Shown: piece by piece, positions 1 to 13,663 of the stretch | Layout of the letters: every line of letters starts with the position of its first letter | Position numbering within the stretch: the first letter of the stretch is position 1 | Origin: a virus | Direction: 5' to 3' (one strand) | IMG/VR virus record: IMGVR_UViG_3300045988_016520 | Coordinates: 1 to 13,663 of that record | Length of the DNA stretch: 13,663 bases | Notes under the pieces: model-generated | Database searches by the model: none | Told to the model about the DNA's origin: nothing | What the model saw: the letters and a program-made list of their open reading frames with translations, nothing else | Position numbers and translations under genes: made by a program

Positions 1-85
1 AAATTTTCCCCCAACCCCCTATTTTTTTGTGCAAAATGTCAATAGACACAAAATATAGTGCCCACGCCCCATAGGGTAGGGGAGT
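1..85. repeat. Left inverted terminal repeat (85 bp)
   Basis: Positions 1-85 (aaattttcccccaaccccct...atagggtaggggagt) are the exact reverse complement of 13579-13663. Identity stops at 86 (a, versus the complement of c13578). The repeat starts 5'-AAA, contains C5-AA-C5 tracts, and carries a 7-bp internal inverted repeat ttttgtg (25-31) / cacaaaa (47-53). Confidence 0.97.
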
Positions 86-123
86 ATAGCAATTTTTACA
101 ATGTATATAGCAACATATACAAT
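85..123 (+). repeat. Two imperfect 18-nt direct repeats spaced 21 bp apart, immediately inside the left ITR
   Basis: tatagcaatttttacaat (85-102) and tatagcaacatatacaat (106-123). They share tatagcaa and acaat, and each ends in a TACAAT -10-like hexamer. Confidence 0.5.
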
Positions 124-131
124 TTGCTGTG

Positions 132-140
132 TGGTATAAT
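132..140 (+). promoter_or_regulatory. Candidate extended -10 promoter (TGgTATAAT) for the rightward early operon
   Basis: tggtataat at 132-140 matches TGnTATAAT. No good -35 hexamer sits 16-18 bp upstream (aacata). It lies about 180 nt upstream of the first gene, in an AT-rich non-coding stretch. Confidence 0.4.
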
Positions 141-320
141 ATAGACAACGAAAAAACACAGAAAGTAGGGTTGACGAATGAACAGCTTATTCAATTCTGT
201 ATTAGAAACTGCCTCTTTGTTTAAAAAACTGTGATGGCTATTCGCAAAGTACAATATTAAAAGCGGAAGTAAATAAAAAATACAATAAGTATCATTTTTT
301 GAAAAGCGAGGTGAAAACCC

Positions 321-506
321 ATGAAAGAAAAAATTAAGATTACAATCACTTTAACCGATGATAACATCGTTTTGTATGGTGAGAATACGCAAGACTTGAC
401 CGAAGATGACATCATTGACATCAACAAGATGCTAGCCAGTCTCGCTAAGACTCCAAGTATTTTACAGGAAGGATACCCAACAAATGAAAAAAGAAGTCGT
501 GATTAA
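321..506 (+). CDS. Small acidic early protein, paralogue A (61 aa), unknown function
   Basis: ATG at 321 is preceded by gaggtg (309-314). The gene sits in an AT-rich region. About 57% identical (29 of 51 aligned positions, by eye) to the adjacent 484-660 product. Confidence 0.7.
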   Translation: MKEKIKITITLTDDNIVLYGENTQDLTEDDIIDINKMLASLAKTPSILQEGYPTNEKRSRD

Positions 507-660
507 AATTACTTTGACCGATGATAACATTACTCTTGATGGTCAGAACTTGCCAGAACTGACCGAGAATGACATTATTGATAGTATCAAGGTGCTTGTC
601 ACTCTTGCCAAGACTATGAATCTTATATGGGAAGGAGACTCAACAGATGGAAATGCGTAA
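484..660 (+). CDS. Small acidic early protein, paralogue B (58 aa), not in the supplied ORF track
   Basis: Hand translation from ATG 484 gives MKKEVVIKITLTDDNITLDGQNLPELTENDIIDSIKVLVTLAKTMNLIWEGDSTDGNA, with TAA at 658-660. RBS aggaagga at 468-475. It overlaps the upstream gene by 23 nt and the downstream gene by 14 nt. It shares the ITLTDDNI..L.G.N...LTE.DIID..K.L..LAKT core with paralogue A. Confidence 0.7.
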   Translation: MKKEVVIKITLTDDNITLDGQNLPELTENDIIDSIKVLVTLAKTMNLIWEGDSTDGNA

Positions 661-919
661 ATTCGTCATCGAGATTCACCCCGACGGCACGTTGACGTGC
701 TGCGAGTATGAGGACCCTAAAGAATCCTTCCGGGCCGCAACTGAACGTGCGTGGCTGGCCGGTTATCGGCAAGCACTCAAGCATTGCGACGAGCAGGTGA
801 ACACGCTTAAGGGTTACAAAGGCACTTGCCAATCATCCGCTCTCATGTACCAGGGGGCCGAATCCGTTCGCTATGTGGTGTTATCGGCCTATCGTAAATA
901 CCTTAACACAAAAAAATAA
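647..919 (+). CDS. Hypothetical early protein (90 aa, four Cys)
   Basis: ATG at 647 with RBS gaaggaga (631-638). Codon usage shifts to the GC-rich style of the rest of the genome. No motif recognised. Confidence 0.65.
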   Translation: MEMRKFVIEIHPDGTLTCCEYEDPKESFRAATERAWLAGYRQALKHCDEQVNTLKGYKGTCQSSALMYQGAESVRYVVLSAYRKYLNTKK

Positions 920-925
920 GTCGAA

Positions 926-964
926 ACGGCCCTCGGGCCGTCCACCGGGACCGCCCGCCCGGTG
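926..964 (+). promoter_or_regulatory. Two back-to-back GC-rich hairpins without a U-tract
   Basis: acggccc-tc-gggccgt (926-941) and caccggg-accgcccg-cccggtg (943-964), 7 nt after the stop codon at 919. The following sequence is ttgataag, not a T-run. Confidence 0.4.
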
Positions 965-1001
965 TTGATAAGACAGGGCACATATTGAAAGGAGTTATAT
1001 T

Positions 1002-1310
1002 ATGGATTTTCGTAACAAAAAGAGTGCAACCCGCAAGAGTGCCCATAAAACTGCTATGACATTCGTTAAATTGAATGAAGTGGAGGGGCCCCTGCAGATC
1101 GAGGATGGCGCCATGTGGCTTAAATCTGGCAAGTATGATGCTCCATCAGTGTCTATTAAGGTAGATCCGGATGCGACGCTGTTCGACTGGGTGCGCAAGA
1201 TCTTTTTGCGCAACGTTGAGCTGTCCGTTGAGGAGAACGAGAAGGGCTATTCTGAACTTATCATCTCCGGCCAGAGCGGTACCGATGACACCGGCGATCT
1301 ACCATTCTAA
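1002..1310 (+). CDS. Hypothetical early protein (102 aa). Possible DNA-binding or SSB-type replication accessory protein, by position only
   Basis: ATG at 1002 with RBS gaaaggag (988-995). The N-terminus is basic (RNKKSATRKSAHK). It lies upstream of the TP/polymerase pair, as phi29 genes 6 and 5 do in transcription order. No motif recognised. Confidence 0.6.
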   Translation: MDFRNKKSATRKSAHKTAMTFVKLNEVEGPLQIEDGAMWLKSGKYDAPSVSIKVDPDATLFDWVRKIFLRNVELSVEENEKGYSELIISGQSGTDDTGDLPF

Positions 1311-1345
1311 ACGGTGGGAGATCTACCATTCTAAACGGTGGGCGA
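1293..1345 (+). repeat. 24-bp tandem repeat, about 2.2 copies, spanning the stop codon of the 102-aa gene
   Basis: ggcgatctaccattctaaacggtg (1293-1316), ggagatctaccattctaaacggtg (1317-1340), then partial ggcga (1341-1345). Each full unit carries a GATC (1296-1299 and 1320-1323) and a TAA. Confidence 0.9.
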
Positions 1346-1367
1346 CCTATGGTCGCCCTTATTTTAT
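1340..1367 (+). terminator. Intrinsic terminator or attenuator
   Basis: 8-bp stem gggcgacc (1340-1347) / ggtcgccc (1351-1358) with loop tat, followed by ttatttta. It merges into the shared 15-nt box ttattttataggagg (1359-1373). Confidence 0.6.
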
Positions 1368-1377: not shown

Positions 1378-1608
1378 ATGAAAAGTAAAGACAACAGAGT
1401 GTCCTTGCTGAATTGCGATGACTCCCTGATATATATAGCATCTGCCATTGTATACAGTGGAGTCGCGGCAGAAGATGTTAATTTTTTCCGTTCTGAATGG
1501 GCCAAAATCATTTTCGATGGTCTTGGCATTGAAGCGGACCCTCTGGACTGGTATTATATGATCCTAAATAGGAAGGAGCGTTTGAAGCATGGCAGCAGGC
1601 GCAGCTAA
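1378..1608 (+). CDS. Hypothetical early protein (76 aa)
   Basis: Internal ATG of track ORF 1171-1608, preceded by aggagg (1368-1373) and placed just after the terminator hairpin. The upstream part of the track ORF overlaps gene 1002-1310 and the repeat/terminator. Confidence 0.6.
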   Translation: MKSKDNRVSLLNCDDSLIYIASAIVYSGVAAEDVNFFRSEWAKIIFDGLGIEADPLDWYYMILNRKERLKHGSRRS

Positions 1609-2188
1609 AGCAAGAGCAACCCTTAAATACAGTCCAGAGCTATACACCCCGTACGCTTTGGAGTCGTGGCCCGATAGTCAGATGCGCAAAGAATACACTC
1701 GATTGCGTGACATTGCGCAGAAACGTATTAAGCGCTTATCAAAAGACCCCATCAGCGGCACCAGCGACATTTATAAAGAATTTGCCGGGGGGTTCCCAAC
1801 TCTAAAGGCAATGCGCGGAGACCGTAAAGCATCGGAGCAGGCCCTTGCAGATGTAGCGCGGTTTGTTCGCTCCAAAGGCTCTACCGTTGGTGGTGCGCGT
1901 GCAGAATTTGAGCAAAAAATGAAAGTGGGCGGTATTGATATAGCCGACGTTCCCGAGGATCAATACACATCCATGTCCGAGTGGTGGGAGATCGTTAAAG
2001 CGTCGGGCGTGTATTACTATCCGTCTGACCAGCCGGTCATGTACTGGCGCGAGAAAGGCGGCTACAACGTCAGTATTGACGATTTTGTAAAGTGGCAGCA
2101 AGGTGAGGTCAACTATGGCACAGAGTGGGACTATAGCGAGGGGAGCAGCTCTGCCGACTTGCGCGGAGGTTTTGGTGGAGGCTTGTAA
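1589..2188 (+). CDS. Candidate terminal protein (199 aa), assigned by position and composition only
   Basis: Directly upstream of and overlapping the protein-primed PolB gene, the usual TP position. RBS aggaaggag (1571-1579). The N-terminal half is basic (KRIKRLSK). The C-terminal half is acidic and rich in Tyr and Ser (YYYPSD, NYGTEWDYSEGSSS). No sequence motif recognised. Confidence 0.4.
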   Translation: MAAGAAKARATLKYSPELYTPYALESWPDSQMRKEYTRLRDIAQKRIKRLSKDPISGTSDIYKEFAGGFPTLKAMRGDRKASEQALADVARFVRSKGSTVGGARAEFEQKMKVGGIDIADVPEDQYTSMSEWWEIVKASGVYYYPSDQPVMYWREKGGYNVSIDDFVKWQQGEVNYGTEWDYSEGSSSADLRGGFGGGL

Positions 2189-4205
2189 TTACAATCCGGT
2201 TCCCTGGCTCATGGAGCACCTGGACAGAAAGCACACTAAAGGCAAGAAGCGCAAAACAAACAAAAAACGATTGTATGTGGATATGCCTTGCGCATTTGAT
2301 ATTGAGACTAGCCGAGTATGTATTGACGCCGACGACAACCCCCACACCATTATGTATATATGGCAATGTCAACTTGGTTTGGATATTACCATTATTGGCA
2401 GGACGTGGGATGAGTGGTTAAATTTTACAGGTGCGATCAGCGACTACTTGCAAGCTAACAGCGGCCCGCAAGGTGACTGGTTTCTGTGTATGTACGTTCA
2501 CAATTTGGCCCACGAATTCCAATATTTGTCGGGTGTTCTGGATTTTGGTCCCGGTGACGTATTCGCCAGCAAGCCCCGGCGCGTTCTGAAATGTGACAAC
2601 CGCGCTATTGAATATAGGTGCAGTATGAGACACAGTAACTTGTCCCTTGATGCTTGGGGTAAGCAGCTGGGTGCCCCACATGCCAAATTGACCGGTACAC
2701 TCGATTATTCAAAAGTGCGGTATCCCTGGACTCCCCTGACATCTACAGAATTAGCGTATTGTGTCAATGATGTCCGGTGTATTGTAGAGTGCTTGTTAAT
2801 TGAGATGAAGCGAGACGGCGACGACCTGTATACATTACCATTAACGCGCACCGGGTACGTCAGACGAATGGCCCGTGAAGCAATGTACAAATGGGGCATT
2901 AACCGGGTCAAGCGTCTACTGCCATCGTGGGAATTGTATCAAATGCTGCGTGAGGCATTCCGAGGTGGCGACACGCACGCCAACCGCTATTATGTGGGTC
3001 TGCACCTAGAAAACGTCGGATCCGTGGATATGTCGAGCGCTTACCCCGCAGTGCAATGCGAATGCTATTTCCCAATGACTCCATTTAGGCAGGAGCCAGC
3101 CACCGTCGAGCGGCTGATGCAATGTATGAGACACGGCAAGGCGTGCCTCATGCGCTTGCAAGTAAAAGGCTTGCGCCAGCGGTTCAAGTGGTGGGGATTT
3201 CCCTATATCCCACTTGCAAAAGTTCGGCACTGTGAAGGATACATAAACGACAATGGCCGCTTGCTGTCTGCCGATCATTTTGAAATCACCATTACAGATA
3301 TAGATTTTAGAATCATTGCCAAAGAATATGATTGGTACGCCCTTAACGTTCTGGACCTTTACACTTCTGATTATGGCAAATTGCCTAAACCGTTGACGGA
3401 CTGTGTTAAAGAGAGTTACACCGGCAAGACATCCCTTAAAGGTGTAGCCGGTCAAGATTTGTATTATGTTAAGGCCAAGGGCGATCTTAACAGCTATTAC
3501 GGTATGACTGCGCAGGACCCCTTGCAGCTGGATACACTTTTTGACGAGGACGACTCCGACAATCTTTGGAGCGAATGCACTGACGACCCAGAGGGCAGTT
3601 ATAACGAGCACCGCCCCCATTTGTTTCTACCGTACCAATGGGGCGTGTGGACAACGGCCCACACGCGAAAGCGCTTGAAAATAGCGCAATGGGCAGCTGG
3701 CAAGAATGGCGTGTACTGTGATACCGATTCCGTCAAATACATGGGCAATATTGATTTGTCGGGCTTTAACAAAGCCGTAAAGCAACTTGCAAAAGACAAC
3801 GGCGCTTGTGCCACCGACCCAAAAGGCCACACCCATTATATGGGTGTGTACGAGCAGGAGCGCAGCTATGCGGAGTTTATGACGTGGGGCGCTAAAAAAT
3901 ACGCGACTACTTATAAAAAAGGCGGGCCTATCACTACTACCATAGCAGGAGTTAGCAAGCGTAAAGGCGGTTTGGAGCTGGCCCTGTGGGGCGGTTTCGA
4001 AGTATTCAAGCCCGGGTTTACGTTTTGTCTTGCCGCCGGAAATCAGGTTATTTATAATGATCGTCCAAACGTGCCGGATTTTGTGGTAGATGGACATACT
4101 GTCCACATCACCCGCAATTTGTGTATTTGTGATAATACCTATACACTCGGCATTACGGACGAGTATGCAAAGATACTCGGGTATAAGATCATGGAGGTTA
4201 CATAA
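2115..4205 (+). CDS. Family B DNA polymerase, protein-primed (phi29 gp2-like) type
   Basis: Exo I FDIET (D codon at 2298). Exo II HNLAHEF. Exo III YCVNDV. Motif A DMSSAYP. Motif B KGDLNSYYG. Motif C YCDTDS (3714-3731). KxY as GAKKY. The start is uncertain: ATG 2115 has gagg 6 nt upstream, and alternatives are GTG 2103, GTG 2175 and ATG 2211. Confidence 0.93.
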   Translation: MAQSGTIARGAALPTCAEVLVEACNYNPVPWLMEHLDRKHTKGKKRKTNKKRLYVDMPCAFDIETSRVCIDADDNPHTIMYIWQCQLGLDITIIGRTWDEWLNFTGAISDYLQANSGPQGDWFLCMYVHNLAHEFQYLSGVLDFGPGDVFASKPRRVLKCDNRAIEYRCSMRHSNLSLDAWGKQLGAPHAKLTGTLDYSKVRYPWTPLTSTELAYCVNDVRCIVECLLIEMKRDGDDLYTLPLTRTGYVRRMAREAMYKWGINRVKRLLPSWELYQMLREAFRGGDTHANRYYVGLHLENVGSVDMSSAYPAVQCECYFPMTPFRQEPATVERLMQCMRHGKACLMRLQVKGLRQRFKWWGFPYIPLAKVRHCEGYINDNGRLLSADHFEITITDIDFRIIAKEYDWYALNVLDLYTSDYGKLPKPLTDCVKESYTGKTSLKGVAGQDLYYVKAKGDLNSYYGMTAQDPLQLDTLFDEDDSDNLWSECTDDPEGSYNEHRPHLFLPYQWGVWTTAHTRKRLKIAQWAAGKNGVYCDTDSVKYMGNIDLSGFNKAVKQLAKDNGACATDPKGHTHYMGVYEQERSYAEFMTWGAKKYATTYKKGGPITTTIAGVSKRKGGLELALWGGFEVFKPGFTFCLAAGNQVIYNDRPNVPDFVVDGHTVHITRNLCICDNTYTLGITDEYAKILGYKIMEVT

Positions 4206-4621
4206 TGAACAACGCGTTGTTTACAAGCAAAACGGGACTGTGGGAAACTCCACAAGAATTTTTCGATAAGCTGAACCGGGAGTTCGATTTCACATTAGAC
4301 GCTTGTGCGACACCAGAGAATGCCAAGTGTATAAACTTTTATTCTCCAGAGCAAGACGGCCTGAGCATGCCGTGGAATGGGCGCGTTTGGTGCAATCCGC
4401 CGTATGGCAGACAGGTTGGCCAGTGGGTCAAAAAAGCGTATATGAGTGCACAGACCGGAGCTCTTGTGGTGTTGCTGCTGCCCGCTAGAACCGACACCGC
4501 ATGGTTCCATGATTATATTTACCGGAGAGCGGAGATCCGTTTTGTTAGAGGAAGACTAAAGTTTGGAGGAAGCAGAAACAGTGCTCCATTCCCTTCCATG
4601 GTATGTTTTTTTAGGGGGTAA
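4205..4621 (+). CDS. DNA N6-adenine methyltransferase, phage Dam-like family (138 aa)
   Basis: Catalytic NPPY (WCNPPYG). Family-typical WETPQEFFDKLNREFDFTLDACA, LLPARTDTAWFH and RGRLKFGG..NSAPFPS. TAATG overlap with polB. RBS ggagg at 4193-4197. Confidence 0.88.
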   Translation: MNNALFTSKTGLWETPQEFFDKLNREFDFTLDACATPENAKCINFYSPEQDGLSMPWNGRVWCNPPYGRQVGQWVKKAYMSAQTGALVVLLLPARTDTAWFHDYIYRRAEIRFVRGRLKFGGSRNSAPFPSMVCFFRG

Positions 4622-4625: not shown

Positions 4626-5687
4626 ATGATTAAACTTTATACCGATGAAGGTTGGCCGAACTTTTCCGAAAAGGACGGCATCTTGTCAACTGGGGTACCC
4701 ATTATTTTTATATGGGGCGGACGTGGCACCGGAAAGACCTATGGAGCGCTAAAGCACGTCCACCAGACCGAAGAGGAATTTCTGTATTTGCGTCGCACGC
4801 CACAGCAGGCGGAACTTATTTGTGCGTCACCCAGTATGTGGCCGTGGTCTCCGTTGAACGACGATTTACAAACGCATTACGCCCCGTTCAAATTGCCCAA
4901 GATAGCGGGACTATATGAAGTGGGCAACGCAGGAGCCTACACGGATACAGGAGCGCCCATTAAACCAGCCAAGATGTCGGGCGTAGTGGGTAGTGTGGTC
5001 ACTCTTGCCCGCACCCGTGGTTTTTCAAGTCCCCACACCAATATAATCATCTTGGATGAATACCAGAAAGAAGAGTCCGACTATTACCGGCGCGGTGAGG
5101 GCGTGGGCCTTGCTAACATTTATGAAACGGTCAACCGAAACCGCGAATTACAAGGGCAAAAGCCCCTGACGCTGCTGTGTATGTCGAATGCTGTTGGCAT
5201 GGCGAACCCCTATTATATGCAATGGGAGATAACCGACACAGTAGAAAAGATGATCGGCAAGAAAGAGCGCGTAAAGCTGCTTGCTGATAAAGGCATTCTT
5301 TTGATTGATCTTGTGGATAGCCCTATTGCAAAGGAAAAAGCAAATACGGCCCTCTATAGGTCCATGACCGGCACAGATTTTTACAGATCAGCTATCGAGA
5401 ATCAGTACAGCGCCGAAGAAAAGAGTTTGGTTGTGTCCCGGCCCTTGCGTGAATACTACCCGCTTGTACAAATTGGGCGGTGTTGCATCTACGAACATAA
5501 GAGCAGACCACTATATTATGTATGCCGCCACAGGTCTGGCGAGATGCCCACCTATGGCACCGGCGACTATGAGCGAAAACGTTTTAGGGCCGCGTATGGG
5601 TACATCTGGCCCGCATACTTGCAGCGGCAACTTGAATTTGAGCGGTACTCGGATGAAATTTTCTTCCGTGAATATTGCGGTACTTGA
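4626..5687 (+). CDS. DNA encapsidation (packaging) ATPase, phi29 gp16-like (353 aa)
   Basis: Walker A GGRGTGKT, followed by YLRR as in gp16 (GARGIGKS...YVRR from memory). Walker B IIILDE. ATG 4626 follows aggggg (4613-4618) and the methyltransferase stop at 4621. The TTG 4563 extension in the track overlaps the methyltransferase. Confidence 0.85.
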   Translation: MIKLYTDEGWPNFSEKDGILSTGVPIIFIWGGRGTGKTYGALKHVHQTEEEFLYLRRTPQQAELICASPSMWPWSPLNDDLQTHYAPFKLPKIAGLYEVGNAGAYTDTGAPIKPAKMSGVVGSVVTLARTRGFSSPHTNIIILDEYQKEESDYYRRGEGVGLANIYETVNRNRELQGQKPLTLLCMSNAVGMANPYYMQWEITDTVEKMIGKKERVKLLADKGILLIDLVDSPIAKEKANTALYRSMTGTDFYRSAIENQYSAEEKSLVVSRPLREYYPLVQIGRCCIYEHKSRPLYYVCRHRSGEMPTYGTGDYERKRFRAAYGYIWPAYLQRQLEFERYSDEIFFREYCGT

Positions 5688-5712
5688 CTTTTTTACGCAG
5701 TTGTTATATATT
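5684..5712 (+). promoter_or_regulatory. Sigma-A-type promoter TTGACT-17-TATATT (candidate late promoter)
   Basis: ttgact (5684-5689, overlapping the ATPase stop), a 17-nt spacer, then tatatt (5707-5712). The predicted start near 5719-5720 coincides with the base of the downstream long helix. Confidence 0.55.
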
Positions 5713-7821: not shown

Positions 7822-9225
7822 ATGCAAGCTACATTTTACCAGTTTGCAAAGCGCACAAACAGCACAAAACGGCCCAGCGGTGGGCAGGAGTTCGGAATTG
7901 ACCTTAAAGCCCCTTGCAATATCATTGACCCAGAGATCAAAATTGCAACGCAGAGCGACCCCACCGTGTTCAATTATTGTTACCTTCCTACGTTCAGCCG
8001 GTACTACTGGGTGAAGAACTGGACATATTCGGACGGGCTCTGGAATGCCTCGCTGACTGTTGACACGCTGGCAAGCTATCGCGACCAGATCGGAAATAGT
8101 ACGGAGTATGTCACAAGATCGTCGGCGCAGTATGATGGTACAATTTCAGATGGACTTTACCCGGCATCGGCTAAAGTGCAAAGTGTAACAACCGCTTTTC
8201 AAGGGGGCTTCGCGGAAACAATTAGTGGGGGATTCTTTGTTATTGGGTTTATAGCTAAAGCCGCAAACTCCATCGGGGCTATTACATATGTAGTAATGAC
8301 CCCCACAAATGCTAAAAAACTATCTGCAAAATTGCTGACTGATGTGTCATACCTTAGTATTGATAACTCCGAAATCAGCGACAATTTGACAAAGGTCCTT
8401 TTCAATCCGTATCAGTATATCGTAAGTTGCAACTATTTTCCATTTGACATCGCTAAACTCACCGCGCATTTGCCGCTTGTGGCTAAGATCGATGTGGGGT
8501 GGTGGTCTGTGGATGTACCTGGCTGGATTTTGGGCGAAGATAACAATAACTTCAAAAAATCGGTAAGTGTGACTGTACCGAAGCACCCCCAGGCGGCAAA
8601 TCGTGGCGAGTATTGCAATGTTGCCCCTTACACGGATTACACTATTTATTTGCAGCCCTTTGGAGTGATACCCCTTGATGCCTCTAAAATGTGGGGGGCT
8701 GCCACATTATCTATACAATATGTGGCGGACCTTTTCACCGGTGACAGCGTACTGCGCATATTTACCAATGGTAACCAGCTGGTATACGAGACAACCGCAA
8801 AACTAGGTGTATCGGTGCAGCTGTCAAATATTAACTTTGGTATCCCCTCCGGCAGTGGGGGTCTTTTGCAAACTGGTATTGCTGCAGCGTTTGGAGGTCT
8901 ACAAGCGGCATTATCTGGCGGAACTTTATCGGACGTCGGAAATGGTATTTTAAATGCCGCCCAAGCAACAAATGCGGATGTCGCAAGCAAGGGCGCCACA
9001 GGGTCGACAATAGCCTTTGATACAATACCCTATATGGTAGCCCGGTTTAAAATTCTTGTGGACGACAACAATGAGGACCACGGCAGGCCCCTTTGCCAGC
9101 GCGTCCAGCTGTTCAGTATTCCGGGGTTCATTATGGTAGATGACCCCGACATCGCATTAACCGCGACTGCCGCCGAGATTGACAGCGTTAAAAGTTATAT
9201 GAAAAATGGATTCTTTTTAGAGTAG
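7822..9225 (+). CDS. Tail knob / distal tube protein, phi29 gp9-like (467 aa)
   Basis: N-terminal pattern NYCYLPTFSRYYWV...LTVDTLASY parallels gp9 YIMFQN..WFYAFV...EIDVLQTW. A Gly/Ala-rich hydrophobic loop (GGLLQTGIAAAFGGLQAALSGG) is followed by GSTIAFD and a C-terminal EIDSVKSYMKNGFF, as in gp9 (comparison from memory). Confidence 0.7.
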   Translation: MQATFYQFAKRTNSTKRPSGGQEFGIDLKAPCNIIDPEIKIATQSDPTVFNYCYLPTFSRYYWVKNWTYSDGLWNASLTVDTLASYRDQIGNSTEYVTRSSAQYDGTISDGLYPASAKVQSVTTAFQGGFAETISGGFFVIGFIAKAANSIGAITYVVMTPTNAKKLSAKLLTDVSYLSIDNSEISDNLTKVLFNPYQYIVSCNYFPFDIAKLTAHLPLVAKIDVGWWSVDVPGWILGEDNNNFKKSVSVTVPKHPQAANRGEYCNVAPYTDYTIYLQPFGVIPLDASKMWGAATLSIQYVADLFTGDSVLRIFTNGNQLVYETTAKLGVSVQLSNINFGIPSGSGGLLQTGIAAAFGGLQAALSGGTLSDVGNGILNAAQATNADVASKGATGSTIAFDTIPYMVARFKILVDDNNEDHGRPLCQRVQLFSIPGFIMVDDPDIALTATAAEIDSVKSYMKNGFFLE

Positions 9226-9237: not shown

Positions 9238-9789
9238 ATGGCAGTATATAAACAGTGCATTACTGATGTATCACCGATCAGAGTGACCGCCGGTTATCCT
9301 GCATACCAGGATGGCAGCCCTCACCGGGGCATTGACACAGTCCACGGAGATCATAAAGCCTACGCGCCCGAGGCGGGCGTTGTGGTCGTGGCTCAGCACT
9401 GGAATGGCAGCACCTCGGGCGACCAGTCATGGGGTAACATGATTAAAGTGCGGATGGCCGACGGCACGACATGGCGGGCCGCGCACTTCGCTACGCAAAT
9501 TTGGAACGTGGGCGACACGATCTCTAAGGGGCAATTCATCGGCACACAGGGCGATACCGGCTACGTTACGGGCATACACACGCACTGGGAATATGCCGAT
9601 GCCGCCGGAAACCTGAGGGACCCGTCCAGCATTATCAGAATCCCGAATCAGGTGGGGACATGGGACGTAGAGTGGGACTCGGGCGGGGGCCCTGGCCCGG
9701 GTCCCGGGCCGGGTCCCGGGCCGTGGCCTACTGGCAAATTGCCGGTATGGTTGCTGTTTAAGATGGCGAAGGGAGGTCGTCTGTTGTGA
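9238..9789 (+). CDS. M23 family (LytM-like) peptidoglycan endopeptidase with a (GP)n linker and short C-terminal amphipathic tail (183 aa)
   Basis: Zinc-ligand motifs HxxxD (HRGID) and HxH (HTHWE). GGGPGPGPGPGPGPWP is encoded at 9682-9729. The C-terminal tail is TGKLPVWLLFKMAKGGRLL. RBS aggagg lies upstream of ATG 9238. Confidence 0.85.
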   Translation: MAVYKQCITDVSPIRVTAGYPAYQDGSPHRGIDTVHGDHKAYAPEAGVVVVAQHWNGSTSGDQSWGNMIKVRMADGTTWRAAHFATQIWNVGDTISKGQFIGTQGDTGYVTGIHTHWEYADAAGNLRDPSSIIRIPNQVGTWDVEWDSGGGPGPGPGPGPGPWPTGKLPVWLLFKMAKGGRLL

Positions 9790-10727
9790 GTGCTCCCTAC
9801 AGCTACGAACAGATTAACGCCCATGTGTCGCCGGTGACTCCCTCTGTGATGCACACAAAAGGAAATAGCCTGTCCTATTATTTCCGCAAGTATCTATTTC
9901 TTGAGGCCGTGTCTATGGTCCGATGGACATTGCCCGAAACATGGCCCAGTAACCGCTTGCAGTATCTTGTCTTTGGCTCGGGTGGTGTTACGGTGTTTAA
10001 CACTGACCGCTATGGCTTAGTCTATGACAGAATGGGACTAACCGGCCTTAACATCTTCTACAATCCCACACACTCCATCATTGCAAACCCTTTTATCAAA
10101 GGGTCCCCATATTTGCAGATCGGAAAGCAATGCGAGATCATCAATTTACAGCCCGATTACCGCGGAATGGTTGATATTGTGGCATATTATGGGGACATGA
10201 TGGCACTTGCCGCCCAGACCATCCAGAGCAATTTAATCAATAGCCGACTTGCCTACGTGTTTGCGGCAGGCAACAAAGCGGGTGCAGAATCTTTCAAAAA
10301 GATGTTTGACGAAATTATGCAGGGCGACCCCGCTGTATTCGTTGATTCGTCTTTGCTCAAAGCACCCAAGAATGGGGCATCCGGGCAGGCCCCATGGATG
10401 TATTTTGCAACTGACCTTAAAGGGAACTTCATCACCAACGAACTGCTTACAGCCCTTAAAACCATTAAAGCACTGTTCGATACCGAGGTAGGCATCCCCA
10501 ACACGAATACCAGCAAGAAAGAACGGATGCTAACCGATGAAGTCAATTCAAACAACGTCGAAACAGCTGCCAAAGCGTCGCTCTGGTTGGATAGCTTGCA
10601 GCGTGGTTGTGAGCGGGTACACAAACTGTTTGGAATTGACAAGTCTACTTTGTGGGTTGACTGGCGTTTTCCGCCCGATACTAATACGCAGGAGGTGAAC
10701 AACGATGCACGCGACCTTGAGCTTTAA
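9786..10727 (+). CDS. Portal / connector (upper collar) protein, phi29 gp10-like (313 aa)
   Basis: KKERMLTDEVNSNN matches the gp10 signature KKERMVTDEVSSN (from memory). The size is close to gp10 (about 309 aa). GTG start in a GTGA overlap with the M23 gene, 9 nt after ggagg (9772-9776). Confidence 0.85.
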   Translation: MSAPYSYEQINAHVSPVTPSVMHTKGNSLSYYFRKYLFLEAVSMVRWTLPETWPSNRLQYLVFGSGGVTVFNTDRYGLVYDRMGLTGLNIFYNPTHSIIANPFIKGSPYLQIGKQCEIINLQPDYRGMVDIVAYYGDMMALAAQTIQSNLINSRLAYVFAAGNKAGAESFKKMFDEIMQGDPAVFVDSSLLKAPKNGASGQAPWMYFATDLKGNFITNELLTALKTIKALFDTEVGIPNTNTSKKERMLTDEVNSNNVETAAKASLWLDSLQRGCERVHKLFGIDKSTLWVDWRFPPDTNTQEVNNDARDLEL

Positions 10728-11370
10728 CGGGTTGTTGGCAGGATACCCGGAGCTGTTCGACGACTTGAAAGTCCCTGACAGTGTATCTAAAGATACTGTC
10801 TGCAATCAATTACTGTTTGATACGCTGGAATTAGAGGTACTATATGCAGACGGCCCAACAATGCGCCGGGCGATGGGCGTCTATTCTGAAACCATGCTCC
10901 CGAGCTGGACCCGGTACGCTGAGGCCCTGGGCCTTAAATACGATGCCTTGGCGTCGGATGACCGAACCAGAACCACCGACCACTCAGGGACCAGCATCGG
11001 CACAAACGGCGTCAAGGGAACGACAACCAGAGTGCCGAACTTGACCACCACTGGCCAGAATAACGGAAGTGACAGCACTACCCGGGATGTCACGGGGTTT
11101 GACAGCGGGACATTGCAAACCGCAGAGAGGAGCACTACGGCCCTCGGTACTGGGAACACCATTACCAGCAGCGGTACAGATACGACCACCACCGATCAGA
11201 CAACCACCTCGGAGTCGCACGACGGCTACAACGACACCGTGACCGAGAATGGCCGGGCAGGGCGAGACCCGCAAGACCTTATTGCAAAAGAGTTGGCCCT
11301 TGCAATGGAAAATGCAGTTCATAAAATCGTTACGGACATCCGGGCAAACTTTTGCCTGCTGGTATATTAA
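10705..11370 (+). CDS. Candidate lower collar / head-tail adaptor protein (221 aa) with a T/S/G-rich central region
   Basis: Sits directly after the portal gene, as phi29 gp11 does. ATG 10705 lies 9 nt after ggagg (10691-10695) and overlaps the portal gene by 23 nt. The assignment rests on synteny only. Confidence 0.45.
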   Translation: MHATLSFNGLLAGYPELFDDLKVPDSVSKDTVCNQLLFDTLELEVLYADGPTMRRAMGVYSETMLPSWTRYAEALGLKYDALASDDRTRTTDHSGTSIGTNGVKGTTTRVPNLTTTGQNNGSDSTTRDVTGFDSGTLQTAERSTTALGTGNTITSSGTDTTTTDQTTTSESHDGYNDTVTENGRAGRDPQDLIAKELALAMENAVHKIVTDIRANFCLLVY

Positions 11371-11383
11371 GGAGATGCAATAA

Positions 11384-13549
11384 ATGGGTATCATCAATCC
11401 TATTCACAAAGCACCCTACACCGACTTCCATGATCTCAATCTTGATTGGATTATTGAAGTGCTTAACGAATTTAACACCAAACTGACGGATTTCGTCAGT
11501 TTGGCCACGATCAAGTATGCAGACCCCCTCCAGTGGGACATTACAAATCAGTACGAAGCAAACACCGTGGTTGTGGACAGCAATGGCAACGCATATCTGT
11601 CTGTGAGGCCGGTGCCGTCCGGTGTCTCTCTGGACCGTACCGAGTTCTGGACAAAAATTGGCAATTTTGATGAGCTTTGGGCCGATGTGAAACGGGCCAT
11701 CACTCCCATCGATGAGGGCCACAGCCCCACCGCCACAGCCGATAGAGCTGTCAACGATCTTGTCTGGGTCGATGGGTCGCTGGTGCGCGTCACAAAAGCA
11801 ATGACCGCCGGTGACGCCTACGTGCCCGGCTCTAACTGCGTGAGCAGCTCCACAAATGAAGTCTTGCATTACCTTATCACGGCATTTAATGAGGGCCTGC
11901 GCGCCGAGCAGACGGCCCGGGAGGATGCCGACAGCGACCTCCAGACAGCCATCGACACCGAGAAACAGACCCGGGAGGATGCCGACAGCGACCTTCAGAC
12001 AGCCATCGACACTGAGAAACAGACCCGGGAGGATGCCGACAACCAGCTCCAGACGGCTATTGACGCGGAGCAGACGGCCCGGGAGAACGCCGACAACCAG
12101 CTACAAAATAGCATCAATCAAATGCAGACATATGTGTCGGCGCCGGGAGCAGGTATTAAAGCAAACGATCAGAGCGCAGCAGCACAAAATACATCGACGC
12201 TACAACAGCTGTTGGATGCCGGAAAAACAGTATATTTTCCAAGCGGAACATATTATATGTCCGCAGCCCTATATATGAAAAGAGGTTGCGGAATAATCGG
12301 CGAGAACATGCGAGACACCGCCCTTATATGGATTACCGCCAGCAATGGAATTATTTACGACCTCGAATACAAGGCCCCCAATACATACGATGACATTTAT
12401 TTTACGATTCGTATCGAATCGCTGGCGCTTTATGGAGTAGGGGCCATCAACGGGGCAGGATCCGGCATTTATATCCGTAACAAAACATGGATGGTCACGG
12501 CTAACCAAAATCACGAAGAATATCGCAAGATCAAAGGTGATTCCTATGCGCTGGAGTGCCGCAATAGTGTTATCAGGGACATTATTGTCTCTGGGTGGTC
12601 CATTGGAATCAATTCGAGCTTATATATTGCATATGTATCCATTATCAACGCTTTTGTGGATACCTGCGATTTGGGAATCGACGCAAAATTTTCTGATTCG
12701 GAATTATGTAATATTGTAGTGACTTTTTGCTATAATGGCGTTTTGTGCGAAACCGAGGCGAACAAATGGTGTAACCTGGCAATTAAGATGAATGGATGGC
12801 GTGCATCTTATGATGCTACGCACACCATTACGGGCTCAATCGCTTTACATTTGTATCACACAAAACGTGAACTATTTTGCAACACTGAGGTACAAGAGAG
12901 CTACGCTAATGGAGTAGTCGTCGAAGAAACAAGTAACAGCATCGTGTTTTCCGGATTATTGCTCGATGCAAATGGATTTAAGATTCCTGTAGGAACCGAG
13001 ACATTTGATATTGGTATCCAAATACTGGGAGGTTCCTACAATATTCGGGGCACGATCCTTGCTACAAACAAAAATGATGTAAAATGTCAGCGAGTCGGCA
13101 TTTATGTATCACCCGATTGCGGCAATATTGATCTCCAATATGCCGAATATGACCAACAGATTAGCGCATGGACCCTTGGCCGGAATACTTGCCGCAGCAT
13201 CACGACAGCTAAGATCAACAACATTACAAAGATTACAGCGACCAGCTTTACAAACGGGGCTGATGCAAGTTATGCATCTTTCGATGGTAGGAATTTGCAT
13301 ATTGCAATTCACGGCTATTTCATCGCTGATGTCCCTACAGACACAAAATTTTCAGTTGCGTCCGCGTTTGGTGATATACCTTTTGCAAGTCTCCCCGGTA
13401 ACGTTTACAGAGACATTTGTCTGTATAATTCTACTGACAACGCCCTTGTTCCTGCTGCATATGATAATACTACCGCAAGTGTTATCATTAAAGCCCCTGT
13501 ACCAACAGGTAAACAAATCAACTGTGAAATCACATTTGATATGCTTTAA
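11384..13549 (+). CDS. Tail fibre / appendage with a coiled-coil repeat region and a pectate-lyase-like beta-helix (putative depolymerase and receptor-binding protein, 721 aa)
   Basis: The N-terminal FHDLNLDWII motif is common in Firmicutes phage fibre N-termini (recollection). There are 4 x 18-aa repeats. AAAQNTSTLQQLLDAGKTVYFPSGTYYMS resembles the start of Pectate_lyase_3-type beta-helix domains. It occupies the position of phi29 gp12. Confidence 0.8.
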   Translation: MGIINPIHKAPYTDFHDLNLDWIIEVLNEFNTKLTDFVSLATIKYADPLQWDITNQYEANTVVVDSNGNAYLSVRPVPSGVSLDRTEFWTKIGNFDELWADVKRAITPIDEGHSPTATADRAVNDLVWVDGSLVRVTKAMTAGDAYVPGSNCVSSSTNEVLHYLITAFNEGLRAEQTAREDADSDLQTAIDTEKQTREDADSDLQTAIDTEKQTREDADNQLQTAIDAEQTARENADNQLQNSINQMQTYVSAPGAGIKANDQSAAAQNTSTLQQLLDAGKTVYFPSGTYYMSAALYMKRGCGIIGENMRDTALIWITASNGIIYDLEYKAPNTYDDIYFTIRIESLALYGVGAINGAGSGIYIRNKTWMVTANQNHEEYRKIKGDSYALECRNSVIRDIIVSGWSIGINSSLYIAYVSIINAFVDTCDLGIDAKFSDSELCNIVVTFCYNGVLCETEANKWCNLAIKMNGWRASYDATHTITGSIALHLYHTKRELFCNTEVQESYANGVVVEETSNSIVFSGLLLDANGFKIPVGTETFDIGIQILGGSYNIRGTILATNKNDVKCQRVGIYVSPDCGNIDLQYAEYDQQISAWTLGRNTCRSITTAKINNITKITATSFTNGADASYASFDGRNLHIAIHGYFIADVPTDTKFSVASAFGDIPFASLPGNVYRDICLYNSTDNALVPAAYDNTTASVIIKAPVPTGKQINCEITFDML
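11906..12121 (+). repeat. Four in-frame 54-bp tandem repeats inside the fibre gene
   Basis: Units start at 11906, 11960, 12014 and 12068. They encode EQTAREDADSDLQTAIDT, EKQTREDADSDLQTAIDT, EKQTREDADNQLQTAIDA and EQTARENADNQLQNSINQ. Units 1 and 2 are nearly identical at the DNA level. Confidence 0.95.
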
Positions 13550-13578
13550 TATCTAGGAATAGTTCCTATTTTGTGCCC

Positions 13579-13663
13579 ACTCCCCTACCCTATGGGGCGT
13601 GGGCACTATATTTTGTGTCTATTGACATTTTGCACAAAAAAATAGGGGGTTGGGGGAAAATTT
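13579..13663. repeat. Right inverted terminal repeat (85 bp)
   Basis: Exact reverse complement of 1-85, ending ...gggggaaaattt-3'. Confidence 0.97.

What the first reader, a model, noticed from the sequence alone, without database searches (positions are those of the whole stretch)
1..13663. The window is a complete, ITR-bounded, unidirectional miniature phi29-like phage genome
Perfect 85-bp ITRs lie at the exact window ends. They enclose a protein-primed-type PolB, a gp16-like ATPase, and gp8-, gp9- and gp10-like structural genes plus a fibre. At 13.66 kb the genome is clearly smaller than phi29 (about 19 kb) and most described picoviruses (about 16-20 kb). Every gene is on one strand, unlike phi29, whose early and late genes are divergent. 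The packaging ATPase follows the polymerase and methyltransferase instead of closing the late operon. No head fibre and no canonical endolysin/holin pair is visible. This is a candidate new lineage with a near-minimal tailed-virion gene set.
Basis: partly seen in the sequence, partly recalled or inferred. Interest (0 to 1): 0.8.

Follow-up and report, generated by a model that had tools for sequence, protein, structure and literature searches.

The report
Common gut phi29-like phage genome
The window is a nearly complete 13.7-kb genome of a very common, uncultured human-gut relative of phage phi29; the genome type is already known, but it carries a self-cleaving hammerhead ribozyme and a conserved, undescribed folded RNA at the start of its virion-gene operon.

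Summary
Perfect 85-nt ITRs bound the window. All supported genes are on the + strand. PolB, a gp16-type ATPase, a phi29-type capsid protein and a gp10 portal pass Pfam cut-offs. The ATPase follows PolB and the methyltransferase.

The interpretation needs three corrections.

1. The window is not fully complete. An identical public contig (13,705 bp, 0 mismatches) runs 22 and 20 nt past its ends. Relatives end about 26 nt further out, at 5'-GGGACACGTAATAGC. The true ITR is about 111 nt and the genome about 13,715 bp.
2. It is not a new lineage. At least 190 IMG/VR contigs share ≥94% capsid identity, and the 90% capsid cluster holds 8,632 sequences. A 2024 survey catalogued 12-14-kb gut phi29-like genomes. 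The isolated Amedibacillus phages AD70P2/P3 (12.3 kb) have the same layout, and isolates of 10.4-11.9 kb are smaller.
3. A holin and a gp13-like M23 peptidase are present.

Two things came up in passing. A type II hammerhead ribozyme lies at 919-982. A 70-nt three-way-junction RNA lies at 5719-5788, straight after a consensus promoter at the head of the late operon. Its bulge and loop pair, 26 of its 27 pairs covary, and Rfam has no match. Its topology matches the phi29 pRNA core, but its function is unknown.

The parts
1..85 (.). Left inverted terminal repeat: the inner 85 nt of an ITR of about 111 nt. It contains the inverted motif pair TTGCACAAAA / TTTTGTGCAA in the full-length version.
   Evidence: 100% complementary to 13579-13663. 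The identical contig L168 extends it by 22 nt. Relatives end 26 nt further out.
13579..13663 (.). Right inverted terminal repeat (inner 85 nt).
95..123 (+). Sigma-70-like promoter (TTTACA-17-TACAAT), a candidate early promoter.
   Evidence: Consensus scan only; function is inferred.
321..660 (+). Two tandem paralogous small early genes: 321-506 (61 aa) and 484-660 (58 aa). Function unknown.
   Evidence: Direct repeat 316-478 / 479-641 at 71% identity. Relative L001 has one copy. No family hit.
647..919 (+). Early gene, 90 aa, unknown function.
   Evidence: ORF with a ribosome-binding site. Also called on L168.
919..982 (+). Type II hammerhead ribozyme. Cleavage is predicted after C942. The core is UUGAUAA (U3-A8 in place of C3-G8). 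Stem I loop GCCC can pair with the 3' tail GGGC.
   Evidence: Rfam RF02276 at 35.8 bits (gathering score 37), E 3e-4. The same site passes the gathering score in 6 of 11 close relatives and in L082, L083 and L111.
1002..1310 (+). Early gene, 102 aa, unknown function. This segment is replaced in relatives.
1293..1358 (+). A 24-nt tandem repeat (two copies, 1293-1340), then a terminator-like hairpin with a T-run (1340-1358).
1378..1608 (+). Gene, 76 aa, unknown function.
   Evidence: AGGAGG ribosome-binding site. Also called on L168.
1589..2188 (+). Terminal-protein candidate (199 aa). It is all-helical with a basic N-terminal helix. The motif S98-T99-V100-x-G102 and serines 146, 186 and 188 are invariant.
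   Evidence: It sits immediately upstream of PolB and overlaps it. Profile match to the Phanie protein encoded at 498-1106: probability 92.7%, E 4e-7. The review reports a p3-like TP in that group. There is no significant match to phi29 p3 itself.
2175..4205 (+). Protein-primed-type family B DNA polymerase (676 aa).
   Evidence: PF03175. The only PDB match is phi29 DNA polymerase, E 2e-8, aligned across the ExoIII, Dx2SLYP, Kx3NSxYG and YCDTDS motifs. The start codon is set by homologues and the ribosome-binding site.
4205..4621 (+). Dam-type N6-adenine DNA methyltransferase, an accessory gene.
   Evidence: PF05869, E 5e-30. Present in only 18 of 163 related loci and absent from L001 and L157.
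4626..5687 (+). gp16-type DNA packaging ATPase (353 aa).
   Evidence: PF05894, E 6e-14; phrog_2150. Start codon.
5684..5712 (+). Consensus sigma-70 promoter TTGACT-17-TATATT. Its -35 element overlaps the ATPase stop codon.
   Evidence: A promoter in the same position, ending 5-9 nt before the RNA, is present in every lineage examined.
5719..5788 (+). Conserved structured leader RNA with a three-way junction. P1 (9 bp); P2 (4 bp); a 7-nt 5' bulge ACAGGCA; P3 (5 bp) with pentaloop CAGAA; P4 (4 bp) with loop CAGCCA; junction AAGAA. The bulge pairs with the P4 loop.
   Evidence: Covariance-model hits in 77 of 82 sources, one per genome. 96.3% of cells paired, against 62% after shuffling; 26 of 27 pairs change on both sides. 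The bulge-loop helix was not part of the model, and 4 of its 5 pairs covary. No Rfam hit.
5818..5976 (+). Holin-like protein with one transmembrane segment (52 aa).
   Evidence: phrog_4898 (holin), E 1.8e-6. Conserved downstream of the RNA in relatives.
5980..6213 (+). Conserved 77-aa protein of unknown function.
   Evidence: 40% identical homologue at the same position in L161. No family hit.
6200..6496 (+). Scaffolding-protein candidate (98 aa, Q/A/P-rich, TTG start).
   Evidence: Position directly before the capsid gene. N-terminal motif shared with the homologues in L082, L083 and L084. Also called on L168. The function is inferred.
6498..7772 (+). phi29-type major capsid protein (424 aa).
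   Evidence: PF25622, E 1e-17.
7778..7801 (+). Strong terminator-like hairpin (10 bp, 9 of them G-C) followed by a T-run, just after the capsid gene.
7822..9225 (+). Tail knob / distal tube protein, gp9-like (467 aa).
   Evidence: Position after the capsid gene. Profile comparison with a gp9 family: 73% probability, E 3e-5, C-terminal ends collinear. A weak N-terminal match, E 0.018. An 88%-identical NCBI homologue is named 'major tail protein'. The AlphaFold2 model failed.
9238..9789 (+). M23 peptidoglycan endopeptidase, similar to the C-terminal domain of phi29 gp13, with a (GP)n linker tail.
   Evidence: PF01551. BLASTP against phi29 gp13 residues 182-285, E 1e-7.
9786..10727 (+). Portal / upper collar connector (gp10).
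   Evidence: PF05352, E 2e-16; phrog_2038.
10705..11370 (+). Lower collar / adaptor candidate (gp11-like, 221 aa).
   Evidence: Position. Two of six family members hit the PHROG families 'lower collar' and 'adaptor'. Profile comparison with phi29 gp11: E 4e-4, probability 34%.
11384..13549 (+). Tail fibre or spike. It has a conserved N-terminal anchor, a coiled coil encoded by 54-nt repeats (11916-12105), and a pectate-lyase-like beta-helix (residues 260-452).
   Evidence: PF12708, E 1e-5, just below the cut-off. Repeats. The N-terminal 147 aa are 56% identical in L161. A weak match to the start of the phi29 gp12 beta-helix.

Best explanation
The window is the genome of an uncultured, very prevalent human-gut podophage of the phi29-related, protein-primed group. 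It lacks about 26 nt at each terminus.

Shown:
- ITRs bound the sequence.
- One-strand gene order: small early genes, terminal-protein candidate, PolB, accessory Dam methyltransferase, gp16-type ATPase, holin, 77-aa protein, scaffold, capsid, tail knob, M23 hydrolase, portal, lower collar, fibre.

Inferred:
- A terminal protein covalently primes PolB at both ends. The true 3' end reads CCC, which suits sliding-back initiation with dGMP.
- An early transcript from the left end is cut by a type II hammerhead between the third and fourth genes.
- A consensus sigma-70 promoter overlapping the ATPase stop codon starts the morphogenesis/lysis transcript. That transcript begins with a 70-nt folded leader RNA.
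- A hairpin after the capsid gene attenuates transcription into the tail genes.
- The ATPase packages TP-DNA through the gp10 portal.
- The M23 enzyme and the holin serve cell-wall penetration and lysis.
For: - ITR.
- Termini: an identical, longer contig; recurrent ends and adapter junctions in relatives.
- Hallmark genes above Pfam cut-offs, supported by PHROGs.
- PolB matches only phi29 DNA polymerase in the PDB.
- Terminal-protein candidate is homologous to the protein upstream of PolB in Phanie.
- gp9, gp11 and gp13 links.
- Holin.
- No support for any minus-strand gene.
- The same architecture in relatives down to 47% PolB identity and in the isolate AD70P2.
- Prevalence.
- Hammerhead.
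- Leader RNA and its promoter.
Against: - No experimental data exist: no evidence of a 5'-linked protein, no virion and no host.
- The terminal-protein candidate has no detectable similarity to phi29 p3 (hhalign E 0.31; Foldseek found nothing).
- The tail-knob assignment rests on a 73% profile match over 82 columns, and the structure model failed (pLDDT 28.5).
- Promoters and terminators are consensus matches only.
- The window's hammerhead scores 1.2 bits below Rfam's gathering score.
- Host remains unknown. Related contigs are binned into Collinsella, Prevotella and Butyricicoccus MAGs, which is inconsistent and therefore uninformative.
Confidence: 0.9

Rival explanations
1. The 70-nt RNA at 5719-5788 is a miniature packaging RNA (pRNA) that bridges prohead and ATPase, as in phi29. 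It would be released from the 5' end of the late transcript, and the bulge-loop pairing would be intermolecular ('hand in hand').
For: - Its topology matches the Rfam pRNA consensus element for element: outer helix, 1-nt junction, helix, 5'-side bulge of 7-9 nt with 0 nt opposite, hairpin, short junction, second hairpin.
- As in pRNA, the 3' part of the bulge is complementary to the loop of the second hairpin, and this pairing covaries. The CE-loop/D-loop pairing of pRNA is described in PMC5066667.
- The phage has a gp16-type ATPase.
- The RNA starts at a transcription start, and in several lineages P1 is followed by a U-run.
Against: - The Rfam pRNA model does not hit the window.
- The new model does not hit phi29, Phanie or AD70P2.
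- In most lineages no terminator follows, so the RNA is a leader rather than a separate gene.
- In MT835998 the element stays with the late operon while the ATPase gene is on the other strand, 8 kb away.
- P2 and P4 are both 4 bp in all lineages, which favours an intramolecular docked fold.
- The outer helix is 9 bp, against about 25 bp in pRNA.
Confidence: 0.25
2. The same RNA is a cis-acting leader of the late operon. It could make RNA polymerase terminator-resistant (like put of phage HK022), act as a protein- or ligand-controlled attenuator, or stabilise the 5' end. The bulge-loop pairing would then be an intramolecular pseudoknot.
For: - It always begins 5-9 nt after the -10 element of a consensus promoter and precedes the holin, scaffold and capsid genes.
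- This linkage to the late operon survives a genome rearrangement.
- A strong hairpin terminator lies between the capsid and tail genes.
- P2 and P4 have equal length.
- Loop and junction nucleotides are conserved (CNGAA, AAGAA), as expected of a binding site.
Against: - No known antiterminator or riboswitch family matches.
- The U-run after P1 is not universal.
- No candidate binding partner has been identified.
Confidence: 0.5
3. The phage is a helper-dependent satellite-like virus, like Acinetobacter phage Phanie, which must borrow a myophage tail.
For: Its capsid protein, PolB and terminal-protein candidate are closer to the Astrithrvirus/Phanie group than to phi29. Phanie's helper dependence is described in PMC11476376.
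Against: - Unlike Phanie, it has a single full-length tail-knob gene, a lower-collar candidate and a 721-aa fibre with a beta-helix domain.
- The review notes that the Phanie group lacks fibre and spike genes and splits the knob into two genes.
- The isolate AD70P2 has the same layout. Whether it propagates without a helper was not checked here.
Confidence: 0.05
4. The ITRs are an assembly artefact and the molecule is not a linear ITR genome.
For: Some related contigs do show fold-back chimeras or adapter remnants at their ends (L053, L067, L014, L034).
Against: - Many independent assemblies carry ITRs of 55-189 nt with the same sequence.
- At least 17 contig ends stop at the same base.
- Protein-primed PolB genomes are expected to have ITRs.
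Confidence: 0.03

Closest known systems
ENA contig ERZ919543 k127_60220 (run ERR414397, PRJEB5224, human gut; locus L168)
   Same: It contains the whole window with 0 mismatches and has the same 18 gene calls.
   Different: It is 42 nt longer (22 on the left, 20 on the right), which shows that the window's ends are trimmed. It is unannotated and unclassified.
GenBank MT836263.1 (Bacteriophage sp., human faeces, Mexico), CALDWI010000036.1 (a contig binned into a Collinsella MAG) and about 190 IMG/VR UViGs
   Same: The same virus group: 85-92% nucleotide identity over 80-96% of the window, capsid identity ≥94%, and the same ITR, hammerhead and leader RNA.
   Different: - The best pairing is about 85% (coverage × identity), below the usual 95% species level.
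- MT836263 and CALDWI010000036.1 lack the methyltransferase.
- Segment 1005-1353 is replaced.
- MT836263 has one copy of the duplicated early gene, and its fibre C-terminus differs.
Amedibacillus phages AD70P2/AD70P3 (OP172638/OP172639, 12.3 kb; filed under Guelinviridae by NCBI)
   Same: These are the closest cultured relatives. The gene order is the same and 14 of 15 genes are on one strand. By manual and descriptor parsing, a promoter plus an RNA of the same topology precedes the scaffold and capsid genes.
   Different: PolB is 35% and the capsid protein 29% identical. No M23 gene lies between knob and portal. The RNA is too divergent for the covariance model.
Astrithrvirus (Salmonella phages astrithr and Astrid), Acinetobacter phage Phanie, Pectobacterium phage DU_PP_III, Vibrio phage K58 g2 (10.4-11.9 kb)
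   Same: Small, ITR-type genomes with PolB followed by the ATPase on one strand. The terminal-protein candidates are homologous. PolB is 32-35% identical.
   Different: They infect Gram-negative hosts. The capsid protein is only 22-25% identical. The tail knob is split into two genes and there is no fibre. Phanie needs a helper tail. Neither the leader RNA nor an intergenic gap after the ATPase gene is present.
Bacillus phage phi29 (Salasmaviridae)
   Same: Protein-primed PolB. Homologues or candidates for gp8, gp9, gp10, gp11, gp13 and gp16. The late-gene order 7-8-9-10-11-12 is largely conserved.
   Different: - phi29 is 19.3 kb with 6-nt ITRs and divergent early and late operons.
- Its ATPase is the last late gene, and it has a head fibre.
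- Its pRNA gene is at the left end.
- PolB is 25% identical over half its length.
Type II hammerhead ribozymes of prophages and phages (Perreault et al. 2011, PMC3088659)
   Same: Same core and stem order, and the same pseudoknot between the stem I loop and the 3' tail. Natural U3-A8 covariation and an intergenic position in a polycistronic phage transcript are both described there.
   Different: I found no report of a hammerhead in a phi29-related phage in the papers searched. The window copy scores just below Rfam's cut-off.

Membership tests
phi29-related protein-primed podophages (sensu Evseev et al. 2024) | Linear genome with inverted terminal repeats | tested here: met
   85-nt perfect ITR in the window. 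It extends to at least 105 nt in the identical contig and to about 111 nt in relatives.
phi29-related protein-primed podophages (sensu Evseev et al. 2024) | phi29-type family B DNA polymerase (p2) | tested here: met
   PF03175 at 35.9 bits against a cut-off of 25.8. The sole PDB match is phi29 DNA polymerase, with the catalytic motifs aligned.
phi29-related protein-primed podophages (sensu Evseev et al. 2024) | Terminal protein covalently bound to the 5' ends | not testable with these tools
   Only a candidate gene (1589-2188) can be named. It is homologous to the protein upstream of PolB in Phanie but not detectably to phi29 p3.
phi29-related protein-primed podophages (sensu Evseev et al. 2024) | gp16-type packaging ATPase, phi29-type capsid protein (p8) and upper collar (p10) | tested here: met
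   PF05894, PF25622 and PF05352 are all above their cut-offs.
phi29-related protein-primed podophages (sensu Evseev et al. 2024) | Tail knob (p9) and lower collar (p11) homologues | tested here: inconclusive
   p9: hhalign 73% probability, E 3e-5, over 82 C-terminal columns. p11: E 4e-4 at 34% probability, and PHROG 'lower collar' hits in 2 of 6 family members. The structure model failed.
Salasmaviridae (phi29 proper) | Close protein similarity, divergent early and late operons, and an Rfam-type pRNA gene | tested here: not met
   PolB is 25% identical over 51% of its length. All genes are on one strand. RF00044 has no hit at E ≤ 1 in the window, whereas phi29 scores 145 bits.
Astrithrvirus | Genome similarity above the genus threshold; two-gene tail knob; no fibre gene | tested here: not met
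   No nucleotide match. The capsid protein is 22-25% identical. The window has a single 467-aa knob gene and a 721-aa fibre.
Hammerhead ribozyme, type II (RF02276) | Conserved core (CUGAUGA ... GAAA ... UH cleavage site), three stems with stem II open, loop I to 3'-tail pseudoknot | tested here: met
   The full-length model alignment scores 35.8 bits against a gathering score of 37 in the window. The orthologous site scores 38-50 bits in 9 relatives. Core positions 3 and 8 occur as C-G (18), U-G (6) and U-A (38), never as C-A. Self-cleavage was not tested.
phi29 pRNA (RF00044) | Sequence and structure match to the family model | tested here: not met
   The window has no hit at E ≤ 1. The new model R2 has no hit in phi29 with filters off.
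phi29 pRNA (RF00044) | Three-way junction with a CE-type 5' bulge complementary to the D-type hairpin loop | tested here: met
   Same order of elements as the Rfam consensus. The bulge-loop pairs covary. This shows resemblance, not membership.
phi29 pRNA (RF00044) | Binds the prohead or portal, and is required for ATPase docking and packaging | not testable with these tools
   This needs experiments. The isolate AD70P2 carries a version of the element.

The most novel reading that the evidence does not exclude
The conserved 70-nt three-way-junction RNA at the head of the morphogenesis operon (5719-5788) is a miniature functional counterpart of phi29 pRNA. That would extend RNA-dependent packaging motors from Bacillus phages to a huge clade of gut phi29-related phages. 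Even if it is not a pRNA, it is an undescribed structured RNA class with very strong covariation and a covarying tertiary contact.
Probability: 0.25. Interest if true: 0.85.

Novelty: new member of a known kind. Interest (0 to 1): 0.5.

Why it matters
The genome itself adds little. It is one more member of an abundant, already catalogued clade of 12-14-kb gut phi29-related phages. It shows that 'miniature, unidirectional, ATPase next to PolB' is the normal layout of that clade.

The value lies in what the clade's diversity reveals.

- **Leader RNA.** A previously undescribed, strongly covarying structured RNA opens the virion-gene operon in every lineage examined. Its topology is that of the pRNA core. 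The 2024 review states that pRNA is regarded as unique to Bacillus phi29-like phages. Whether other gp16-type motors use an RNA is an open question. That question becomes testable with the cultured Amedibacillus phages, which carry a version of the element.
- **Hammerhead.** A self-cleaving ribozyme conserved in the early operon of a lytic protein-primed phage gives a clean system for studying ribozyme-based mRNA processing. The population itself samples C3-G8, U3-G8 and U3-A8 but never C3-A8.
- **Termini.** The recurrent terminus 5'-GGGACACG gives the likely replication origin and the likely initiating nucleotide.

Tried and rejected
- AlphaFold2 model of the 467-aa protein, built from a shallow alignment (88-96% identity): pLDDT 28.5, unusable, so no fold search was run.
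- AlphaFold2 model of the terminal-protein candidate (pLDDT 72) searched with Foldseek against the PDB: no hit below E 0.7.
- Sequence and profile searches of the PDB with the 467-aa, 221-aa, 199-aa and fibre proteins: nothing.
- Host inference from GTDB genomes: three MAG contigs in three unrelated genera, taken as mis-binning. CRISPR-spacer matching was not possible with the tools.
- Left non-coding region 86-320 as a pRNA locus: folding z-score -0.1, so rejected.
- The 102-aa protein (1002-1310) as a phi29-type SSB: no similarity to the PF17427-positive protein at the same position in L083.
- A MAFFT alignment of divergent RNA copies put the helices out of register. It was replaced by covariance-model alignments.
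- The idea that the RNA is linked to the ATPase gene was dropped after MT835998 showed that it travels with the late operon.
- No tRNA genes were found.

Full report
**1. The observation**

The first 85 and last 85 bases of the window are perfectly complementary. On the + strand there is a continuous series of genes.

- Pfam places six of them above the curated cut-offs: PolB (PF03175), Dam methyltransferase (PF05869), gp16 packaging ATPase (PF05894), phi29-type major capsid protein (PF25622), M23 peptidase (PF01551) and gp10 connector (PF05352). PHROGs agrees.
- The six longest minus-strand ORFs lie inside these genes and hit nothing.
- Independent gene calls on an identical public contig list 18 genes, all on the + strand.
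- PolB's only match among solved structures is phi29 DNA polymerase. The ExoIII, Dx2SLYP, Kx3NSxYG and YCDTDS motifs align.

**2. The ends**

The window is not quite a complete genome.

- The ENA contig L168 (ERZ919543, run ERR414397, human gut, 13,705 bp) contains the window with zero mismatches. It continues 22 nt to the left (CACGTAATAGCAGATTGCACAA) and 20 nt to the right with the complementary sequence.
- I aligned the ends of the IMG/VR relatives on a conserved anchor. At least 17 contig ends stop at exactly 5'-GGGACACGTAATAGCAGATTGCAC, 26 nt outside window base 1.
- In L055 both ends are joined directly to an Illumina adapter at GGACACG, the signature of a physical DNA end.
- ITRs in relatives measure 55-189 nt. 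L070 shares the window's inner ITR boundary and has 111 nt.

The real molecule is therefore about 13,715 bp with an ITR of about 111 nt, and it starts with GGG, not AAA. A 3'-CCC template end suits sliding-back initiation with dGMP. That step is my inference from established knowledge of phi29 and PRD1 replication.

**3. Gene map**

Start codons were set from homologue lengths, ribosome-binding sites and the L168 gene calls.

*Early region*
- Two tandem paralogues lie at 321-506 and 484-660 (a 163-nt duplication). Relative L001 has a single copy.
- Genes of unknown function follow at 647-919, 1002-1310 and 1378-1608.
- A 24-nt repeat in two copies and a terminator-like hairpin occupy 1293-1358.

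*Terminal-protein candidate (1589-2188)*
- It overlaps the PolB start.
- It has a basic N-terminal helix and invariant serines near the C-terminus.
- Its model is all-helical (pLDDT 72).
- It is not detectably similar to phi29 p3. Its profile does match the protein upstream of PolB in Acinetobacter phage Phanie (92.7% probability, E 4e-7). The 2024 review reports a p3-like terminal protein in that group.

*Replication and packaging*
- PolB is 2175-4205.
- The methyltransferase (4205-4621) is accessory. Only 18 of 163 related loci have it, and L001 and L157 lack it.
- The ATPase is 4626-5687.

*Late genes*
- Holin, 5818-5976 (phrog_4898, E 1.8e-6).
- A conserved 77-aa protein.
- Scaffold candidate, 6200-6496.
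- Capsid protein, 6498-7772, followed by a strong hairpin with a T-run at 7778-7801.
- A 467-aa protein, the gp9-like tail knob (see below).
- M23 peptidase, which aligns with the C-terminal domain of phi29 gp13 (E 1e-7).
- Portal.
- A 221-aa lower-collar candidate.
- A 721-aa fibre with a coiled coil and a pectate-lyase-like beta-helix.

*The 467-aa protein.* A deep family alignment matches a gp9 family built from phi29, Harambe, two gut Clostridium phages and a Curtobacterium phage. The match has 73% probability and E 3e-5, and it covers the C-terminal ends of both proteins. This is moderate support for 'gp9-like'.

A holin and a peptidoglycan hydrolase are present, but there is no dedicated endolysin beside the holin. 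Some relatives have one at that spot: an M23 peptidase in L084 and a NAGPA-domain protein in L085.

**4. How common, and how new**

*Abundance in public data*
- The capsid protein finds 190 IMG/VR contigs at ≥94% identity, most of them 13-13.9 kb.
- The capsid 90% cluster holds 8,632 sequences and the top PolB cluster 6,656.
- The tail-knob family comprises 5,213 clusters at 50% identity.
- Contigs with PolB only 47-64% identical have the same length, the same order and the same single strand.
- Among the sequences I fetched, the closest non-identical ones are about 85% similar (coverage × identity). GenBank MT836263.1 is another member.

*Prior description*
- Evseev et al. 2024 (PMC11476376) surveyed more than 2,000 phi29-related sequences. 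Their table of cluster representatives includes human-metagenome genomes of 12.3-15 kb, for example a 13,382-bp one with 49.8% G+C and Clostridia as the suggested host. I could not test whether the window belongs to that cluster.

*Cultured relatives*
- The nearest are Amedibacillus phages AD70P2/P3: 12.3 kb, PolB 35% and capsid 29% identical, same order, 14 of 15 genes on one strand.
- Next comes the Astrithrvirus/Phanie group at 10.4-11.9 kb.

Small size, one-strand coding and an ATPase next to PolB are thus the norm for this clade, not a novelty.

The layout is not universal, however. In MT835998 (PolB 46% identical) the TP-PolB-ATPase block is on the opposite strand at the far end of the genome.

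Host remains unknown. Three related contigs sit in MAGs of three unrelated genera. The cultured relatives and the M23-plus-holin lysis set point to Bacillota, but that is inference.

**5. Hammerhead ribozyme (noticed in passing)**

- Rfam finds a type II hammerhead at 919-982 in the gap between the third and fourth genes: 35.8 bits against a gathering score of 37, E 3e-4.
- The orthologous site passes the gathering score in 6 of 11 close relatives and in three distant ones. A pattern search finds the motif in 64 of 82 sequences.
- The window's score is lowered by a core that reads UUGAUAA. Across the population, positions 3 and 8 occur as C-G (18), U-G (6) and U-A (38), never as C-A.
- Perreault et al. 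2011 describe exactly this natural U3-A8 covariation, report such variants as active in vitro, and describe the loop I to 3'-tail pseudoknot. The window can form that pseudoknot (GCCC with GGGC).
- Predicted cleavage is after C942. The likely role is processing of the early polycistronic transcript, as that paper proposed for prophage hammerheads.

This is a new member of a known kind.

**6. Conserved leader RNA (noticed in passing, and the most interesting item)**

*Location.* The 133-nt gap between the ATPase and holin genes contains a consensus promoter, TTGACT-17-TATATT, at 5684-5712. Six nucleotides later a branched structure begins.

*Conservation.*
- Distant relatives have the same architecture at the same place, with entirely different helix sequences.
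- A covariance model built from seven copies and then rebuilt from its 34 hits finds exactly one copy, on the + strand, in 77 of 82 sources.

*Structure.*
- P1, 9 bp.
- One unpaired nucleotide.
- P2, 4 bp.
- A 7-nt bulge on the 5' side only.
- P3, 4-5 bp, with a C(A/G)GAA pentaloop.
- Two unpaired nucleotides.
- P4, 4 bp, with a 5-7-nt loop.
- A purine-rich AAGAA junction.

*Covariation (45 distinct sequences).*
- 96.3% of cells are paired, against 62% after shuffling and 34-39% with slid partners.
- 26 of 27 pairs change on both sides.

*Bulge-loop pairing.*
- The 3' part of the bulge is complementary to the P4 loop in every lineage. Examples are GGC/GCC, AGUCA/UGACU, GACCA/UGGUC, GGUCA/UGACC, AACCA/UGGUU, UGUCA/UGACA, GUGC/GCAC, GAGC/GCUC and ACGC/GCGU.
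- This helix was not part of the model, so the alignment was not fitted to it. Even so, 4 of its 5 pairs covary.

*Context.*
- Rfam 15 has no match.
- In all lineages the element starts 5-9 nt after the -10 of a near-consensus promoter. It is therefore the 5' end of the morphogenesis transcript.
- In MT835998 it stays, with its promoter, in front of the holin-capsid operon although the ATPase gene is elsewhere.
- AD70P2 and L083 have versions that only a descriptor search detects.

**7. What the leader RNA may be**

*Resemblance to pRNA.* Its topology is the same, element for element, as the Rfam consensus of phi29 pRNA. That consensus has an outer A helix, a 1-nt junction, and a C helix with the CE bulge on the 5' side only. 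Then come the E hairpin, a short junction and the D hairpin. In pRNA the CE bulge pairs with the D loop of a neighbouring molecule (PMC5066667).

*Arguments against a pRNA role.*
- There is no sequence-model match in either direction.
- Most lineages lack a terminator after the element.
- The linkage is to the late operon, not to the ATPase gene.
- P2 and P4 have equal 4-bp lengths, which suit an intramolecular docked fold.

*My estimates.*
- About 0.5 that it is a cis-acting leader: antitermination across the post-capsid hairpin, attenuation, or stabilisation.
- About 0.25 that it is a pRNA-type packaging RNA.
- The rest for something else.

Either way it is a well-supported new RNA motif.

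**8. Verdict**

The finding is a correct description of an ordinary member of a large, already catalogued clade, so as a 'new lineage' it scores low. It is about 52 nt short of complete. The two RNA elements, especially the leader RNA, raise the interest of the locus to moderate.

Noticed in passing
window 5719-5788 (+), with promoter 5684-5712: A conserved 70-nt three-way-junction RNA with a covarying bulge-loop contact. It begins at the transcription start of the holin-scaffold-capsid operon. It is found in 77 of 82 related genomes and is absent from Rfam. Its topology equals the phi29 pRNA core.
   Followed up: yes
window 919-982 (+): A type II hammerhead ribozyme in an early intergenic gap, with predicted cleavage after C942. 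Across the population, core positions 3 and 8 occur as C-G, U-G or U-A, never C-A.
   Followed up: yes
outside window base 1 and base 13663 (L168 1-22 and 13686-13705; relatives L002, L011, L070 and others): The true termini lie about 26 nt beyond the window and read 5'-GGGACACGTAATAGCAGATTGCAC. An adapter abuts this end in L055.
   Followed up: yes
window 316-641: A tandem 163-nt duplication gives two paralogous small genes (61 and 58 aa, 71% nucleotide identity). Relative MT836263 has one copy.
   Followed up: partly
window 4205-4621: The Dam-type methyltransferase is an accessory insertion between PolB and the ATPase, present in 18 of 163 related loci. Other lineages carry a phi29-type SSB gene at that spot (L085).
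   Followed up: partly
window 1293-1358: A 24-nt unit (GG[C/A]GATCTACCATTCTAAACGGTG) in two tandem copies spans the stop of gene 1002-1310. A G+C-rich hairpin with a T-run follows. The whole 1005-1353 segment is replaced in close relatives.
   Followed up: no
window 7778-7801: A strong terminator-like hairpin (10 bp, 9 of them G-C, then a T-run) lies between the capsid and tail-knob genes. It implies attenuation or a need for read-through.
   Followed up: no
window 11916-12105: Three copies of an 82-nt unit, overlapping at a 54-nt period, encode an 18-aa coiled-coil repeat (REDADSDLQTAIDTEKQT) in the fibre.
   Followed up: no
L161 (MT835998.1): A relative (PolB 46% identical) has TP-PolB-ATPase on the opposite strand at the right end, convergent with the virion operon. 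One-strand coding is therefore not universal in the clade. In this genome P1 of the leader RNA is followed by TTTTT.
   Followed up: partly
L157, L158, L159 (GTDB MAG contigs): Whole phage genomes of this clade are binned into Collinsella, Prevotella and Butyricicoccus MAGs. This is likely mis-binning and contaminates those MAGs.
   Followed up: no
window 9238-9789, C-terminal part: The M23 peptidase ends in a (GP)6 linker and a short hydrophobic or basic tail. The corresponding DNA is a GGGCC-rich palindromic stretch in relatives (L001 3906-3996).
   Followed up: no
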